Source: Candidatus Latescibacterota bacterium
GTDB lineage: Bacteria > Latescibacterota > UBA2968 > UBA8231
Assembly: GCA_965203175.1 (NCBI GenBank)
Contig: OZ241867.1
Location: 5,920,001 to 5,984,000 of the forward strand
Direction: 5' to 3'
DNA length: 64,000 bases
Below, one piece after another: positions 14,777 to 62,162 of the stretch. The notes beneath the pieces are model-generated. The model saw only the letters and a program-made list of their open reading frames with translations, had not been told where the DNA came from and searched no databases. Within the stretch, counting starts at the first letter, position 1; each line of letters begins with the position of its first letter. Made by a program: the position numbers and the translations under genes.

Positions 14777-15496
14777 ATGGCAATCGCTTGGGAAATCCCG
14801 TCGGGCTGGCCTCGGCTCAGCGACGATGAAATCCACGTCTGGTGCGTCGAGTTGGACGCGGCTGGTGAAGTGGCCGCACTCGCGGCTTGTCTGAGCGAGG
14901 AAGAGCGCGAGCGAGCGAGCGGCTTGCTCTCCGGCACCCATCAGCGGCGCTTTGTGGTGGCGCGGGGGATGCTGCGCCAGCTTCTGGGGCTATACCTCGA
15001 CCAAGATCCCGGCGCGGTGACTTTTTCGCGCGGCGCGCACGGCAAGCCCTTTCTGCAAGAAGGCGGGCCGCATTTCAACGTGTCCCACACCCACGAGCTA
15101 GCCCTGTATGCGATAGCGCGCGACCGCGAGGTCGGCGTTGATGCGGAGTGGATGCGCCCCCAAGTCGCGCACGAGCAAATTGCCGCGCGCTTCTTTTCGC
15201 TAGAGGAGCAGGAGGCACTGGCGCAGGTGGCGGACGAGGAGCGGCGGACGGCTTTTTACAACATCTGGACGCGCAAGGAAGCCTATGTCAAAGCGCGGGG
15301 CGACGGCATTGCCGCTGGCCTTGGCACCTTTGCGGTGTCGCTGGGAGCAGAGGCGGCGCTTTTGCACTCGGACGAGGGGCGGGACGAATTGGAGCGGTGG
15401 AAGTTAATCGCTTTGGAACCGGCGGACGGATACGTCGCGGCTTTGTGCGGGGCTGGCGTGGACTGGCAGGTGCAGGGTTGGCGCTGGCGGCCTTAG
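14777..15496 (+). CDS. Sfp-type 4'-phosphopantetheinyl transferase
   Basis: HGKP, FNVSHT, VGVDAE and WTRKEAYVKARG motifs. Confidence 0.93.
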   Translation: MAIAWEIPSGWPRLSDDEIHVWCVELDAAGEVAALAACLSEEERERASGLLSGTHQRRFVVARGMLRQLLGLYLDQDPGAVTFSRGAHGKPFLQEGGPHFNVSHTHELALYAIARDREVGVDAEWMRPQVAHEQIAARFFSLEEQEALAQVADEERRTAFYNIWTRKEAYVKARGDGIAAGLGTFAVSLGAEAALLHSDEGRDELERWKLIALEPADGYVAALCGAGVDWQVQGWRWRP

Positions 15497-15542
15497 CAAG
15501 CGGCTCGCCTTCGTGCGCGCCGCTCCCCACATGGAACCGTCC

Positions 15543-15749
15543 TCATTGAAGCGTATCTCCAATGAGGCTGCTGCCGTCCGCGGCTATCACATAAAGCTCA
15601 GCATTCCCATCGCGCTCGGACACAAAGGCGATGCGTTGGCCGTCCGGAGACCACGCCAGATAACAGTCGTTGCCGGCGTCGTGCGTGAGGTTGGTTGCGA
15701 CATCGCAGCCGAAAACTAATCCTATGAGACAGCCGATCATTGCCTTCAT
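15543..15749 (-). pseudogene. TolB-like (PD40 repeat) gene fragment
   Basis: 68 aa with a single AWSPDGQRIAFVSERDGNAELY repeat; too short for a beta-propeller. Confidence 0.6.
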
Positions 15750-15889
15750 AGAAAATCTCCGTGAGACTGGCGGCTTGAGCCGTCAGAGGGATAGGGGCGG
15801 TTTTCACGACGGGCTGGCAACGCACGAGGCGTTGGTAGTCCCTGAGTGAGAGCCGATATATTTTGCCTATAACTCATCCCTTTAGTTAT

Positions 15890-16314
15890 AGACAAAATTA
15901 ATTGGACTGCGTTCTGCATAGTAGCCATGCTTTTTAGTGCGCCCGAATACCCGCCGGATGCGTTACGAATAGCGGGTCGAGCGTCGCGCTTAGGCAAAAG
16001 GCACCCTCTTGTGAGGGGTAAAACAGTTTCAGTCCCACGATAGCGCGCCGCCCCACACGTCGATAGCACTGTATGCGTGGACCGTAGTGGCAAAGCAGGT
16101 CAGCCAGTAGGATTTGCCACTGCGAACGCCTCGGGAGCTTCTCCCCCAAGTGGCTGCTTGGTGTCAGCAGGCGTATAGTTTCGCCGAGTAGCATGATGTC
16201 GCATCCCGCGATGTGGTGCTGCATCCGAATACCTCCGGTTTAGCACGGTGCTCGCGCTAGAGGGGTTGGGAAAAGGCAGGGACAAGCCGACTACTTCAGT
16301 GGTCGGTGGCTGAC
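15890..16314 (+). mobile_element. Non-coding IS200/IS605-type element / stand-alone omega(re)RNA candidate
   Basis: Ends in CAGGGACAAGC-hairpin-GTGGCTGAC, homologous to the right end of the tnpB element at 60957-60995; preceded by TTAT; several hairpins; no credible ORF. Confidence 0.65.
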
Positions 16315-16373
16315 AGCGTCAACTCAATTGAATTTTTTAGGCGTGCGCGCCAAAGACATCCACTGAGAGAGAA

Positions 16374-17123
16374 TCAGACGATCCGCTGCGTCACCACGCC
16401 GTGCAGATCCATCTCAAAGTCGATGTCCACAACCGGCGGCCGAGCGTAGTGCCAACAAACGCCGCCGCGCCGCGCCGCACCCATCGTCGGCAGGAGAATC
16501 TCTTCGAGGATTTCCGCTAAAGGATAGATGGTGTACACGTCAACCGCGTCAATCAAATCCCACGTTCCGCCCAAGCCCATAAGCCGCTCGCCCATAACCT
16601 GCGCCACATAAGCGGCCTTCTCGCGCATAGCAGCGGGCGACGTGTCGCCGGAGCGGATAATCCCCTCGGTCACGAGGAGCCCCTCCCGCAATTCGCCGGC
16701 ACCGGCCACGATCAGCGTTTTGCGGGCGATCTGATCGTTGGGAATCGCGTAGGAAAAGGCATACAGCGAAGGCACAGCCGGCGGATCGCACGCCGGCGCA
16801 ACATTCGTGCGCGCCACCGGATTGAGTTCGTCCACGTACAAACCCCACGCCTTCAGGACGGCGCAATACTCGCGGTTGAAGTCAATAAACCCCTGCATGG
16901 TAAAAGGCTCAGGCGAGCGCAGTTCCATCGCGCAGAGCGAGACTCGGTCGCAGCCTTCCGCCGCCAGATGCGCATCCACGCGCTCAAAGCCCTCGCGCCA
17001 AGGCAGCGGCTCGGCCAGCACAACGCGGACGATCTCCCAACCCGGCTCGGCGACGACGCCACAAGAATAGGGATCAATGCCCTGGAGAAAGCGATAGTGT
17101 CCTTTGGGATGTGCAATCAGCAT
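16374..17123 (-). CDS. CnbZ-like (2-amino-5-chloromuconate deaminase/RidA-fold) protein
   Basis: YRFLQGIDPYSCGVVAEPG, ELRSP.PF, NPVARTNV and RPPVVDIDFEMD motifs. Confidence 0.7.
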   Translation of the reverse strand: MLIAHPKGHYRFLQGIDPYSCGVVAEPGWEIVRVVLAEPLPWREGFERVDAHLAAEGCDRVSLCAMELRSPEPFTMQGFIDFNREYCAVLKAWGLYVDELNPVARTNVAPACDPPAVPSLYAFSYAIPNDQIARKTLIVAGAGELREGLLVTEGIIRSGDTSPAAMREKAAYVAQVMGERLMGLGGTWDLIDAVDVYTIYPLAEILEEILLPTMGAARRGGVCWHYARPPVVDIDFEMDLHGVVTQRIV

Positions 17124-59995: not shown

Positions 59996-61021
59996 ATGAC
60001 AGACACACCTACTTTCGCGGAGGTGGAAGAGGCCGAGGCGTTTATCGGTGCCCATCTCGCGCCGACGCCGCTCGTCCACTGCTATAAGCTCTCGCAAATG
60101 CTGGGCTGCTCCTACCACGCCAAGTGCGAGAACTTGCAGCCCGTGGGAGCCTTTAAGGTGCGCGGCGGTGTCAACCTCATCGGGCGCTTATCCCCTGCCG
60201 AGCGGCAGCGGGGCGTCATCAGCGCGAGCACCGGCAACCACGGCCAGTCGCTGGCGTACGCCGGCCAGCTCTTTGACACGCCAGTGATCATCTACGGACC
60301 GGAGCGCGCCAGCAACCCGGCCAAAGTCGCGGCCATGCGCGCCCTCGGCGCAGAAGTCCGCCTCGTTGGCCGCGATTTTGACGAGGCGCGCGAGGAAGTC
60401 GAGCGCGAAGCGCGCCGCACGGGCTGCCGCTACGTGCACTCGGCCAACGAGCCGTTGCTGATCGCCGGCGTGGGCACCATGGGCTTGGAGATTTTTGCCG
60501 CCCTGCCCGATGCGGAAGCGCTGATTGTGCCCGTCGGCGGCGGCAGCGGCATCTGCGGCATCTCGCTCGTCGCCCGCCACCTAAACCCATCCGTCGAGAT
60601 CATCGGCGTACAAAGCGAGAGCGCTCCGGTCTGCTACCGGGCTTGGCAACAGCGGCGGCTCGACGTGGAAGCCCCCATGGCCACGCGGCACGAGGGGCTA
60701 GCCACGCGCGTGCCCTTTGCGATGACCTCGCACATGATGTGGGAACTCGTCGATCACTTCGAGCTCGTCACCGACGAAGAAATAGACGCGGCCATTGGTC
60801 TGTTGGCGCGAGAGGCCAAGCTAGTAGCCGAAGGAGCCGGAGCCGCATCACTAGCCGCGGCCCTGAAAATTCGCGACTCTTTGGCCGGCAAAAAGGTAGT
60901 CGGCATCCTCAGCGGCGGGAACGCACCCGCCGATCACTTAGCACGGATTTTGCAAAGTCAACCACTGACGGCTAAAGCGCGTCAGCTTGTCCCTGACCGT
61001 TACCCCGCCGCCGCGGAGTAG
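59996..61021 (+). CDS. Threonine/serine dehydratase (PLP, fold type II); the last ~21 codons come from the inserted tnpB element
   Basis: KCENLQ..GAFKVRG, ASTGNHGQ, PVGGGSG and EGAGA...SGGN motifs. Confidence 0.92.
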   Translation: MTDTPTFAEVEEAEAFIGAHLAPTPLVHCYKLSQMLGCSYHAKCENLQPVGAFKVRGGVNLIGRLSPAERQRGVISASTGNHGQSLAYAGQLFDTPVIIYGPERASNPAKVAAMRALGAEVRLVGRDFDEAREEVEREARRTGCRYVHSANEPLLIAGVGTMGLEIFAALPDAEALIVPVGGGSGICGISLVARHLNPSVEIIGVQSESAPVCYRAWQQRRLDVEAPMATRHEGLATRVPFAMTSHMMWELVDHFELVTDEEIDAAIGLLAREAKLVAEGAGAASLAAALKIRDSLAGKKVVGILSGGNAPADHLARILQSQPLTAKARQLVPDRYPAAAE

Positions 61022-62128
61022 GCCGAAATTTTAGGCGCATTGACAGACGCCCTTGCCCGGATGTTCCGGGCGGCGTTGTAATCGGCGTGAGCGTGATGCC
61101 CACACTGCTTACAACGAAACTGGGATTGACAGGAGCGATTACCGCGCTCGACATGTCCACATTGAGAGCACATCTGAGAGGTGTACTGGGGATCGACGAT
61201 CTTGAGCAACACGCCAGCCAGCTCCGCTTTGTAGCTGACAAACTGGCGAAGCTGGTCAAATCCCCAAGACCCCATGCGGTTGCGTTGCGGCTTGCGAAAC
61301 CGGATCCGGTCGCGGAGGCCCTTGAGCTCTTCCAAGGATATGCCGCGCCCGGTGTCTTTGGCCTTCGCAACGAGTCGCTTAGAGATACAGTGGTTGGTAT
61401 TCCGACGAAACCGCGCCTCGCGGTCGCCGATGCGTTTGAGCTTCTTACGGATGCGCTTACGCCGTCGCGCATTAGCAGCCAGATCAGCCGCCGACTGAAG
61501 GGCTTGCTTGAGCGTCTGGTTCTTGACGCGCACACGCTCTACATCTTCGCCGGTGTGTTGTTCTCCGTCCGAGTCGGTGGCAAGGTTCTCGATACCCAGA
61601 TCAACACCGAGGAAATCGTCAGAATCACACGGCGGCTCCGGCTCATGCTCGACGGTGGCCATGAGAAACCACTTGCCATCCTTGCGGCGGACCAGTTCGG
61701 CAAACAGCTTGACGTTACCAAACTGCTCGGCTTGATAGTCTCCCATCACCATCGGGATGTCATGCCGGTTTCCATCCGCCGTCTTGATGTTGAGGGCTTC
61801 CAAGCCCTTGTAACGAAAGGCTCCCTTGCGATACGGGATTGCCGCCAGGGGACGAAACGACACCTGCTTAGACTTGTCGCGCTTGTAGTTGGCTGCCACT
61901 TGAGCAAAGGTCAGAATAGCGATGTCCGCCGGAAGATCAAACACTTCTCGAACCTCGTAGTAATACAGCTTGTGCAACGCATAGCGGTTGGCAAGCTGAC
62001 GCTCAAAGGCTTTCTCGGCCACCCAAGTACACGCAGCATTAAACCGGCGCATCGTCTCTTCGAGCGCGTCAGCCTGCTCAGGTGTAGGCAGGAGCTTGAT
62101 TTGTATAACTCGTTTCACAATAGAAAAT
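60957..62128 (-). mobile_element. IS200/IS605-family (IS1341-type, tnpB-only) element
   Basis: Right end CAGGGACAAGC-hairpin-GTGGTTGAC; removing 60957-62128 restores an in-frame host stop; left boundary inferred at TTAT. Confidence 0.75.
61000..62118 (-). CDS. tnpB: RNA-guided endonuclease TnpB
   Basis: RuvC D/E/D intact (GVDLG, LEEL, HADYNAARNI); zinc finger CSQC...CKQC; GTG start chosen (alternative ATG at 62136). Confidence 0.95.
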   Translation of the reverse strand: MKRVIQIKLLPTPEQADALEETMRRFNAACTWVAEKAFERQLANRYALHKLYYYEVREVFDLPADIAILTFAQVAANYKRDKSKQVSFRPLAAIPYRKGAFRYKGLEALNIKTADGNRHDIPMVMGDYQAEQFGNVKLFAELVRRKDGKWFLMATVEHEPEPPCDSDDFLGVDLGIENLATDSDGEQHTGEDVERVRVKNQTLKQALQSAADLAANARRRKRIRKKLKRIGDREARFRRNTNHCISKRLVAKAKDTGRGISLEELKGLRDRIRFRKPQRNRMGSWGFDQLRQFVSYKAELAGVLLKIVDPQYTSQMCSQCGHVERGNRSCQSQFRCKQCGHHAHADYNAARNIRARASVNAPKISAYSAAAG

Positions 62129-62162
62129 ATAACCATTAGGCCGTCCCCAAGCGAGAACTTTT

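What the first reader, a model, noticed from the sequence alone, without database searches (positions are those of the whole stretch)
15890..16340. Protein-free 425-nt omega/reRNA-like element related to the tnpB locus 45 kb away
Seen: the 3' end CAGGGACAAGC-CGACTAC-TTCA-GTGGTCG-GTGGCTGAC parallels the tnpB element end CAGGGACAAGC-TGACGCGC-TTTA-GCCGTCA-GTGGTTGAC, with a different stem sequence but the same fold. The pairing partner covaries: GTCAA...TTGAC in the tnpB element versus GTCAGC (16163)...GCTGAC here, each followed by a similar ...TTTCG context. A second complement, GTCAGCCA (16099-16106), sits in the loop of the AGTGGCAAA/TTTGCCACT hairpin. TTAT precedes both elements, and there is no ORF. 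Established: TnpB reRNAs derive from the right end, and the downstream flank is the guide. Inference: a non-autonomous element or stand-alone guide RNA with guide AGCGTCAACTCAATTGAATT that could reprogram TnpB in trans. Its extra ~250 nt of 5' structure is unexplained.
Basis: partly seen in the sequence, partly recalled or inferred. Interest (0 to 1): 0.7.

Follow-up and report, generated by a model that had tools for sequence, protein, structure and literature searches.

The report
Protein-free transposon carrying a guide RNA
This is a 565-base mobile element of the IS200/IS605 family that has no genes of its own but keeps an enlarged version of the guide RNA used by the TnpB nuclease, a known kind of hitch-hiker, here in an unusually elaborate form.

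Summary
The resemblance is real, but the element is larger than reported. It spans window 15750-16314 (565 bp), not 15890-16340, and it follows TTCAT, not TTAT.

**Evidence that it is a discrete insertion**
- A contig from a related strain joins TTCAT directly to the right flank AGCGTCAACTC.
- Its left end matches the left ends of the genome's tnpA+tnpB and tnpB-only elements.
- Its right end is the TnpB omega-RNA core: stem 1, pseudoknot, stem 2, and stem 4 with a tetraloop at -20..-17. This matches the published ISDra2 architecture.

**What differs from the tnpB-linked RNAs**
- The core carries three expansions, including a ~140-175-nt 5' domain.
- No protein or TnpB remnant is detectable inside.

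**Distribution**
- The genome holds three more copies, one complete and two truncated.
- Related copies occur in four other species of the genus.
- A sister family occurs in a second genus.

**Structure support**
- Covariation is strong: 96.9% of cells paired and 38 of 51 pairs compensatory.
- The long RNA form never sits behind an intact tnpB (0 of 9). The short form usually does (30 of 34).

**Most likely mechanism**
It is a PATE-like non-autonomous element. TnpA would move it, and TnpB supplied in trans would retain it. Meers et al. 2023 mention such elements in print.

**Not shown**
Expression and TnpB binding were not shown. The guide matches no second site that has a TAM.

The parts
15745..15749 (+). 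TTCAT: target / TAM-like flank 5' of the element. Its CAT is the reverse complement of the ATG of a 68-aa PD40-repeat ORF on the minus strand.
   Evidence: The flanks of 14 related elements read YCAT. PD40 Pfam hit.
15750..16314 (+). The whole protein-free IS200/IS605-family (PATE-like) element, 565 bp.
   Evidence: Contig X3 record 8 joins 15659-15751 to CGTCAACTC... and then to 16381-16403 (2-nt AG ambiguity). Copies and homologs share these ends.
15750..15870 (+). Left end. It contains a subterminal imperfect hairpin CTGGCGGC-TTGA-GCCGTCAG at 15767-15786 and a CCCTGAG..GATATA block. Its first bases read GGAGAUUUUCU+AUG on the opposite strand.
   Evidence: Aligns with the left ends of T2-T6 tnpB elements, of the tnpA+tnpB elements T10/T11 and of family P2.
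15871..15984 (+). Variable spacer with indels between copies. It holds a weak promoter-like TTGCCT-N18-TATAGA at the position of the tnpB promoter of T2-T6.
   Evidence: Alignments. The promoter scan found nothing at its threshold, so the promoter is only a positional inference.
15985..16126 (+). 5' RNA domain specific to the protein-free lineage. Hairpins at 16004-16017, 16056-16079 (conserved loop CGATAGCACTG) and 16086-16121.
   Evidence: RNAalifold and pair counts. Model R2 hits only the four copies in G000, plus G020, G005 and weakly G046. It hits no tnpB locus.
16127..16173 (+). Candidate stem 1 (CGCCT 16127-16131 with AGGCG 16169-16173). Its enlarged loop carries the 5' strand of the pseudoknot, GTCAGC 16163-16168.
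   Evidence: c2 has TGCCT/AGGCA and G046 has CGCAT/ATGCG. In tnpB-linked ends the equivalent is GGCNN/NNGCC, with 2 of 5 pairs compensatory.
16178..16283 (+). Stem 2 (GTTTCGCC 16178-16185 with GGC-A-GGGAC 16275-16283). It encloses an 87-nt two-branch expansion where tnpB-linked RNAs have a 20-24-nt hairpin that contains the tnpB stop codon.
16288..16305 (+). Stem 4, which is also the right-end subterminal hairpin (CGACTAC-TTCA-GTGGTCG). The tetraloop lies at 16295-16298, which is -20..-17 from the guide.
   Evidence: The ISDra2 UUUA tetraloop at -20..-17 is from PMC10097598 (passages read).
16309..16314 (+). GCTGAC: 3' strand of the pseudoknot and last bases of the element.
   Evidence: the G005 homolog has GTAAGC/GCTTAC.
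16315..16330 (+). Flank that would serve as the guide (AGCGTCAACTCAATTG).
   Evidence: By position only. Unique in the genome at 14 nt or more. Its first 11 nt follow TTCAT in the empty-site contig.
60957..62162 (-). The tnpB element 45 kb away (T1w). The tnpB ORF is at 61000-62136. The right end has the same RNA core without the expansions. The left end is truncated and lacks the hairpin and the -35 box.
   Evidence: Pfam OrfB_IS605 + Cas12f1-like_TNB. R1 match E 6e-6. Left-end comparison. RuvC motifs align with solved relatives.

Best explanation
[quoted passage not shown] It carries a complete but enlarged TnpB omega-RNA gene at its right end.

Shown:
- It is a discrete insertion 3' of TTCAT with no target duplication.
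- Both ends have the subterminal hairpins of the genome's IS605-type elements.
- The right ~190 nt fold into the stem 1 / pseudoknot / stem 2 / stem 4 core. This core is shared with the RNAs that overlap the 3' ends of intact tnpB genes.
- The fold is kept by compensatory changes across species.

Inferred:
- A Y1 TnpA supplied by an autonomous element moves it as single-stranded DNA. T11, and perhaps T10, encode Y1_Tnp.
- The + strand is transcribed, from a weak left-end promoter or by read-through.
- TnpB from the T1w-T6 family binds this RNA in trans. After excision, TnpB cuts the empty site (TTCAT + AGCGTCAACTC...), so recombination restores the element.
- The three RNA expansions arose or persisted because no overlapping tnpB reading frame constrains them. 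Their role may be stability or competition for TnpB, but it is unknown.
For: 1. Boundaries. A contig of a related strain (X3 record 8, 169 nt) reads ...TTCAT|AGCGTCAACTC... without the 565 bp.
2. Left end. It is 72-89% identical over 38-100 nt to the left ends of T10, T11 and other elements. Hairpin and block structure are shared with T2-T6.
3. Y1_Tnp was scored on the ORF upstream of T10's tnpB (E 1.7e-37). T11's upstream ORF is a close homolog by eye, with an ATG start, and was not itself scored.
4. Copies. There are three more in G000: c2 complete at 78% identity, c3 and c4 truncated. Homologs occur in G020, G005, G044 and G046.
5. A sister 437-bp protein-free family sits at 9 different loci in 5 genomes of a second genus.
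6. Model R1 of the 3' module finds tnpB right ends end to end (T1w E 6e-6; T2-T6 about 1e-8 to 1e-9).
7. Covariation:
   - 46 matches (44 distinct): 96.9% paired versus 34-48% when slid; 38 of 51 pairs changed on both sides; 0 of 500 shuffles reach this.
   - 4 full-length sequences: 23 of 79 pairs compensatory.
   - + strand consensus -66.3 versus - strand -42.8 kcal/mol, with many G-U pairs.
8. Architecture, including the tetraloop at -20..-17 and the 3' tail pairing upstream beside stem 1, matches ISDra2 omega-RNA (PMC10097598, passages). The pseudoknotted model on 26 tnpB-linked ends is 96.1% paired.
9. No coding remnant: tblastn of 12 TnpBs found nothing significant in the interior, and the internal ORFs have no Pfam hit.
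10. Copies with intact ends co-occur with intact T-family tnpB: G000 has 6, G020 has 3, G080 has 2. Genomes with immobilised or decayed copies showed only a fragment (G005), broken or partial genes (G046), or none (G044).
11. The same YCAT flank is used by tnpB-bearing and protein-free elements.
Against: - Expression is not shown. No RNA-library contig covered 15752-16260 in the 4 runs laid, which is not evidence either way. The promoter scan found no sigma-70-like site.
- The single-sequence fold is only marginally better than shuffles (z = -1.6).
- The covariation alignments were fitted to the model or derived from the same sequences, and the sequences are related.
- The empty-site joint has only 23 matching letters on its shorter side, at 90% likeness. 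That is a class the tool warns about, although 9 of the 26 letters between the two sides also match the flank.
- T10's tnpA frame has no ATG/GTG/TTG start near its beginning.
- The nearest tnpB (T1w) has a truncated left end.
- Compatibility of the enlarged RNA with any TnpB is untested.
- The co-occurrence count is 3 versus 3 genomes, one of them only 77% complete.
Confidence: 0.65

Rival explanations
1. It is an inert relic: a tnpB element that lost its gene by internal deletion. It is now neither mobile nor transcribed, and its similarity to other copies is shared ancestry only.
For: - PATEs are known to arise by core deletion (PMC3119063, passages).
- G044 carries just such a deletion derivative, with a decayed T10-like tnpB remnant and an orphan-like right end.
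- c3 and c4 are truncated.
- Expression is unshown.
Against: - Copies differ by 22-27% yet keep 96.9% of pairs, with 23 of 79 pairs compensatory.
- c2 and c3 are near-identical at different sites.
- The sister family is multi-copy in 5 genomes.
- No TnpB remnant is found inside.
- The 5' domain has no match in any tnpB locus.
- Both terminal hairpins are intact here.
Confidence: 0.15
2. It is a domesticated stand-alone guide or regulatory RNA. The RNA works with a TnpB-like protein, or on its own, to regulate a host gene, as TldR-type systems do. Mobility would be secondary.
For: - The G005 and G046 homologs have lost stem 4, the TnpA hairpin, yet keep the rest of the fold.
- The G046 copy has no recognisable left end and follows a TTGCCC-N16-TATAAT box. 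It ends 8 nt before the ATG of the next gene.
- The elaborate 5' domain is specific to the lineage.
Against: - The window copy has both transposon ends.
- Its flank 'guide' has no other TAM-flanked match in the genome.
- T-family TnpBs keep the RuvC motifs, and no nuclease-dead partner was seen.
- Genomes with the immobilised copies showed no intact T-family tnpB with this query, which fits relics as well.
Confidence: 0.1
3. The conserved structure acts only as DNA. The hairpins would be TnpA recognition and cleavage signals on the single-stranded top strand, and no RNA would be involved.
For: IS200/IS605 ends need subterminal hairpins on the top strand (stated in the preprint 10.1101/2023.03.14.532601, passages). 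The left-end and right-end hairpins here have the same form.
Against: - Conserved pairing extends over ~330 nt, far beyond the subterminal hairpins.
- It reproduces the omega-RNA core known from the ISDra2 structure.
- G005 and G046 lost the TnpA hairpin but keep the other helices.
Confidence: 0.07

Closest known systems
PATE-like elements related to ISGst1/ISGst5 in Geobacillus stearothermophilus (Meers et al., preprint 10.1101/2023.03.14.532601; passages read)
   Same: They have IS200/IS605 ends and no protein-coding genes. They are described as often encoding omega-RNAs that TnpB from other elements would have to act on in trans, with mobilisation by TnpA in trans.
   Different: They occur in a different phylum and a different end family. 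That paper mentions them only in passing. No enlarged RNA, no lineage-specific 5' domain and no cross-species covariation is described in the passages I read. Its supplements and figures were not seen.
ISDra2 TnpB omega-RNA (Nakagawa et al. 2023, PMC10097598; passages read)
   Same: The scaffold ends at the transposon's right boundary. There are four stems and a pseudoknot formed by the last bases before the guide. A tetraloop sits at -20..-17. Stem 3b and the 5' region are dispensable or flexible.
   Different: ISDra2 RNA overlaps its own tnpB and has a 116-nt core. Here there is no tnpB, the core spans ~188 nt because of insertions in the stem-1 loop and stem 3, and the TAM-like flank is TTCAT rather than TTGAT. 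No sequence similarity was tested.
PATEs of Haloquadratum walsbyi (Dyall-Smith et al. 2011, PMC3119063; passages read)
   Same: They are transposase-free and have near-terminal palindromes related to IS605-type elements. They make no target duplication. Some derive from IS605-type transposons by core deletion.
   Different: They are archaeal and were defined before omega-RNAs were known. Many are only ~52 bp terminal fusions. The element here keeps a ~330-nt structured RNA.
Mini-IStron / omega-RNA supplied in trans (Zedaveinyte et al., preprint 10.1101/2023.11.20.567912; passages read)
   Same: It shows experimentally that TnpB cleaves equally well with its omega-RNA expressed from a separate plasmid. 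It also depicts a PATE with IStron ends and no ORFs.
   Different: It concerns IS607 / group I intron contexts in Clostridia. No intron is detected here: Rfam gave no hit.

Membership tests
PATE / non-autonomous IS200/IS605 element | Subterminal imperfect hairpins at both ends, no terminal inverted repeats | tested here: met
   Left-end hairpin 15767-15786 and right-end hairpin 16288-16305. Both are of the same form as in T2-T6 and T10/T11.
PATE / non-autonomous IS200/IS605 element | Insertion 3' of a short conserved motif without target-site duplication | tested here: met
   The empty-site contig reads TTCAT|AGCGTCAACTC. YCAT lies to the left of 14 related elements.
PATE / non-autonomous IS200/IS605 element | Too short or unable to encode a transposase or TnpB | tested here: met
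   The element is 565 bp. tblastn with 12 TnpBs found nothing significant inside. 4 internal ORFs have no Pfam hit at E<=1.
PATE / non-autonomous IS200/IS605 element | Several copies at unrelated sites; a cognate Y1 transposase elsewhere in the genome | tested here: met
   4 copies in G000. Y1_Tnp E 1.7e-37 was scored on T10's ORF; T11's ORF has an ATG start.
PATE / non-autonomous IS200/IS605 element | TnpA-dependent excision and integration | not testable with these tools
   Needs an excision assay.
TnpB omega-RNA (reRNA) | Scaffold at the right end, ending at the element boundary, with the guide read from the flank | tested here: met
   R1 aligns the orphan and 30 tnpB-linked right ends to the same last base.
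TnpB omega-RNA (reRNA) | Conserved core: stem 1, pseudoknot with the 3' tail, stem 2 enclosing stem 3, stem 4 with a tetraloop | tested here: met
   compared with PMC10097598. Stem 1 of the orphan itself rests on 3 informative sequences.
TnpB omega-RNA (reRNA) | Overlaps or directly follows a tnpB gene | tested here: not met
   0 of 9 long-form RNAs have an intact tnpB upstream. This is why it is filed as a PATE that carries an omega-RNA-like gene, not as a canonical tnpB locus.
TnpB omega-RNA (reRNA) | Transcribed and processed; binds TnpB; guides TAM-dependent cleavage | not testable with these tools
   The 4 RNA runs laid did not cover the element, so there is no evidence either way.
Rfam RNA families (any, including transposon-associated guide RNAs) | Match at or near the gathering score | tested here: not met
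   0 matches at gathering score in the window. Only chance-level hits with E>=0.39 in 15700-16400.
TldR-type domesticated guide system | Nuclease-dead TnpB homolog with a guide matching a host promoter | tested here: not met
   T1w keeps the RuvC motifs. The guide has no second TAM-flanked target.

The most novel reading that the evidence does not exclude
The long-form RNA marks an old, independent lineage of 'guide-RNA-only' selfish elements. On this reading they are hyperparasites of TnpB that have persisted across at least two bacterial families. They would have evolved extra RNA domains (the 5' domain, the stem-1 loop insert and the doubled stem 3) that help them capture or outcompete for TnpB in trans. 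Immobilised descendants, such as the G046 copy with its own promoter-like box abutting a gene start, may have been recruited as host RNAs.
Probability: 0.25. Interest if true: 0.75.

Novelty: new variant of a known kind. Interest (0 to 1): 0.5.

Why it matters
PATEs that carry omega-RNAs are mentioned in print only in passing, as a hint that TnpA, TnpB and guide RNA are modular.

Here the protein-free form is a distinct, covarying, multi-species lineage whose RNA is larger than that of its tnpB-bearing relatives (0 of 9 long forms versus 30 of 34 short forms linked to tnpB).

If the RNA is used by TnpB in trans, it is a natural case of guide-RNA parasitism. It would also be a natural experiment on which scaffold insertions TnpB tolerates, which bears on omega-RNA engineering.

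If the RNA is not used, the conserved 5' domain needs another explanation.

Tried and rejected
- **Rfam:** gathering score on the whole window gave 0 hits. Permissive scans of 15700-16400 and of the tnpB locus gave only chance-level hits.
- **Decayed-CDS test:** tblastn of 12 in-genome TnpBs against the four copies found nothing significant inside. The few E<0.02 hits came from my stop-to-stop extension of T2 into its own left end.
- **Genome-contig scan** with a 19-nt interior motif: 12 hits in unrelated phyla, taken as chance.
- **Metagenome-contig scan** with a degenerate 5'-hairpin motif: 66 loci, 0 of which matched model R1. That number is about what chance predicts. Records near this genome may be excluded from these collections.
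- **Promoter scan:** 0 sites.
- **RNA evidence:**
  - In the 4 runs laid, no contig covered 15752-16260, so nothing can be said about expression.
  - One 280-nt contig in X2 covers 16261-16296, and its overhang looks like another orphan-type right end. It is not counted as expression.
  - A second joint, 15494->16376, in X1 and X3 was not pursued.
- **Second-target search for the guide:** none with a TAM.
- **Second pairing of the 3' end** with the hairpin loop at 16099-16106: rejected as not conserved.
- **Cross-genus homology of the 5' domain:** only weak (R2 E 0.0015-0.4 on the g2 elements). It rests on one shared hairpin motif.
- **Supplements** of the cited papers could not be seen. Extended Data of Meers et al. 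may already show omega-RNA-bearing PATEs in more detail.

Full report
**1. The observation**

The sequence at 16277-16314 reads CAGGGACAAGC, a 7-bp stem, TTCA, the stem's partner, then GTGGCTGAC. The only other exact CAGGGACAAGC in the window is at 60995-60985 on the minus strand. It lies 4 nt after the stop of a 378-aa ORF (61000-62136, minus strand) that carries OrfB_IS605 and Cas12f1-like_TNB domains. The two 3' ends align base for base apart from the stem. GTCAGC at 16163 and GCTGAC at 16309 are complementary, as are GTCAA and TTGAC in the tnpB element. A GTTTC block follows the 5' partner in both.

**2. The boundaries are different**

BLAST against the genome showed that the stretch left of the reported start (15752-15836) resembles sequences just upstream of other tnpB or tnpA genes. 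It also showed three further copies of the interior.

The window lies at G000 5920001-5984000. The copies are:
- c2 (G000 362746-~363290, minus strand): complete, 78% identical.
- c3 (~355950-356442): almost identical to c2 but cut at its 3' end.
- c4 (~352968-353170): left end plus 5' interior only.

All copies, and the tnpB-bearing relatives T1w-T6, begin right after YCAT (TTCAT, CCCAT, CTCAT, ATCAT). T3 is unclear. They start with A(A/G)AAA(T/C)CTC followed by an imperfect hairpin. The element is therefore 15750-16314 (565 bp), and the TTAT at 15886-15889 is internal.

A contig from an RNA library of a related strain (X3, record 8) covers 15659-15751. It then has 26 letters beginning CGTCAACTC, then 16381-16403. 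That strain reads TTCAT|AGCGTCAACTC with nothing in between. This is an exact empty site with no duplication, apart from a 2-nt AG ambiguity. One caveat applies: the shorter side of the joint is 23 letters at 90% likeness.

**3. What surrounds it and what else is in the genome**

The element sits between a 249-aa ORF of no known family (16374-17123, minus strand) and a 68-aa PD40-repeat ORF (15543-15749, minus strand). The ATG of the PD40 ORF is the reverse complement of the CAT of TTCAT.

The genome has 12 tnpB-like loci:
- Six form a close family (T1w, T2-T6; 69-87% identical to T1w).
- T10 and T11 are preceded by a Y1_Tnp gene. T10's ORF scores E 1.7e-37, and T11's has an ATG start. These are the candidate autonomous elements.

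It has lost most of its left end, including the hairpin and the TTGACA box present in T2-T6.

**4. No protein**

tblastn with all 12 TnpBs found nothing significant inside any of the four copies. Four internal ORFs have no Pfam match. The last ~15 codons of T-family tnpB overlap the shared RNA module. That overlap explains a short V-x-x-x-I-V-S echo in one frame and nothing more.

**5. The RNA fold**

Four full-length sequences were aligned (orphan, c2, G020 and G005; 73-78% identity where BLAST aligned them). They give a consensus of 79 pairs, of which 23 have compensatory changes and 96.9% of cells are paired. When the partners are slid, 39-48% pair, and 0 of 500 shuffles reach the observed values. 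The opposite strand folds worse (-42.8 versus -66.3 kcal/mol), and many pairs are G-U. This points to an RNA of the + strand. The single sequence alone is unremarkable (z = -1.6).

Covariance model R1 was built from the 3' 154 nt. Its results were:
- It matched 18 of 31 genomes of the genus at E<=0.01.
- It matched 23 of 132 genomes of the class at E<=1e-4, confined to 2 of 31 genera.
- Besides the long forms, it aligned end to end with the 87-106-nt right ends of tnpB genes, T1w included.
- On 46 matches (44 distinct), 96.9% of cells pair and 38 of 51 pairs changed on both sides. The closing helix has 5 of 6 such pairs.
- That alignment is fitted to the model and the sequences are related, so these numbers overstate independence.

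I then wrote the tnpB-linked ends as a pseudoknot: stem 1 (GGCNN...NNGCC) with GTCAAC in its loop, stem 2 (GTTTC-N4 / N4-A-GGGAC), a small stem 3 holding the stop codon, stem 4, and a 3' tail pairing with GTCAAC. On 26 sequences, 96.1% of cells pair. Stem 1 has 2 of 5 compensatory pairs and stem 2 has 4 of 9.

This is the layout reported for ISDra2 omega-RNA, down to the tetraloop at -20..-17. Here that tetraloop is TTCA at 16295-16298 (PMC10097598, passages).

**6. How the orphan differs**

Relative to the tnpB-linked RNA, the orphan has three additions:
- About 30 extra nt in the stem-1 loop (16132-16162).
- An 87-nt two-branch insert in place of the 20-24-nt stem 3.
- A ~140-nt 5' domain (15985-16126) with three hairpins.

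Model R2 of this region (window 15988-16160, which also takes in the stem-1 loop) gave these results:
- In G000 it hits only the four copies.
- It hits G020 and G005 strongly and G046 weakly (E 2e-4).
- It hits the second-genus elements only marginally (E 0.0015-0.4).
- It hits none of the eight tnpB loci offered.

Of 45 R1 matches, the 9 long forms (110-154 nt) have no intact tnpB upstream. One of them has a decayed T10-like remnant. Of the 34 short forms that could be evaluated:
- 30 have a TnpB match of 200 aa or more.
- 2 have remnants.
- 2 belong to another protein-free family.

Two matches at contig ends were left out.

**7. Distribution**

- G020 has a complete homolog after TTCAT.
- G005 has one after TTCAT that lacks stem 4 but shows GTAAGC/GCTTAC in place of GTCAGC/GCTGAC.
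- G044 has a left end, a decayed tnpB remnant and an orphan-like right end.
- G046 has a copy without a recognisable left end or stem 4. It lies behind a TTGCCC-N16-TATAAT box and ends 8 nt before the next gene's ATG.
- A second genus has a 437-bp protein-free family at 9 loci in 5 genomes, after TTCAC.

With T1w's protein as query, intact T-family tnpB was found in G020 (3 copies) and G080 (2 copies). It was found only as a fragment in G005, as broken or partial genes in G046, and not at all in G044.

**8. Mechanism**

The best reading is a PATE that hitch-hikes twice: on TnpA for movement, and on TnpB for retention through its own omega-RNA.

The flank that would act as the guide is unique in the genome. 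The only 12-nt match lacks the TAM-like motif. The RNA can therefore only address its own vacated site, and 'reprogramming' towards another target is not supported.

Transcription, processing and TnpB binding are all inferred. Rivals and their odds are listed separately.

**9. Comparison with what is known, and novelty**

- PATEs were defined in Haloquadratum (PMC3119063).
- Meers et al. state that PATE elements 'often encode' omega-RNAs that would need TnpB in trans (preprint).
- Zedaveinyte et al. show that omega-RNA works in trans (preprint).

The kind is therefore known. Within what I could read, three things appear new:
- A long-lived protein-free lineage.
- An RNA larger than that of its tnpB-bearing relatives.
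- A private 5' domain.

They cannot show that this has never been described, and supplements were closed.

Noticed in passing
G000 left ends at 316918, 355024, 4939967, 5140058, 5446979 and window 15750: In 6 of 9 elements with a recognisable left-end hairpin, the CAT of the YCAT flank is the start codon of an opposite-strand ORF of 68 to 500 or more aa. The element's first bases then supply a GGAG/GAGG box 7-8 nt upstream of that ATG. These elements may insert at, or survive best at, gene starts and replace the ribosome-binding site. No chance expectation was computed.
   Followed up: partly
G000 4939967-4940403 (+) and 5446543-5446980 (-): A second protein-free family ('P2', ~437 bp) is present as two near-identical copies after T(T/C)CAT. 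Its left end is very like the orphan's. Its right end finishes ...GGTGGCATTAC, like T10/T11. Similar ~440-bp units occur at least 4 times in G007.
   Followed up: partly
window 62130-62162 (minus strand), left end of the tnpB element T1w: T1w's left end stops after GGGGACGGCCTA and runs straight into the tnpB start region. About 90 nt present in T2-T6 are missing, including half of the hairpin and the TTGACA box. The tnpB looks intact, but the element is probably immobile.
   Followed up: partly
L067 (G046) 1286-1645: An orphan-type RNA without transposon ends lies in a 360-nt gap between two same-strand genes. It sits behind TTGCCC-N16-TATAAT and ends 8 nt before the ATG of a 357-aa ORF.
   Followed up: partly
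G000 350-365 kb and 317-403 kb: The region is dense in mobile elements. It holds c4, T2 and c3 within 4 kb, c2 7 kb further on, and seven of the 12 tnpB-like loci of the genome.
   Followed up: no
window 15494 / 16376: RNA-library contigs from two studies (X1, X3) join 15494 to 16376. They skip 881 bp that include the PD40 ORF and the element. Some relatives therefore lack the whole segment.
   Followed up: no
window 16033-16063: A 31-nt stretch of the 5' domain matches at 90-94% one site each in G000 (927179-927209) and 5 other genomes of the genus. It was not examined and may be chance or a fragment of a conserved gene.
   Followed up: no
L016 1093-1497 (T10 tnpA): The Y1_Tnp frame upstream of T10's tnpB has no ATG/GTG/TTG near its start. 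T11's homolog begins with ATG. T10's transposase may be defective or use another start.
   Followed up: partly
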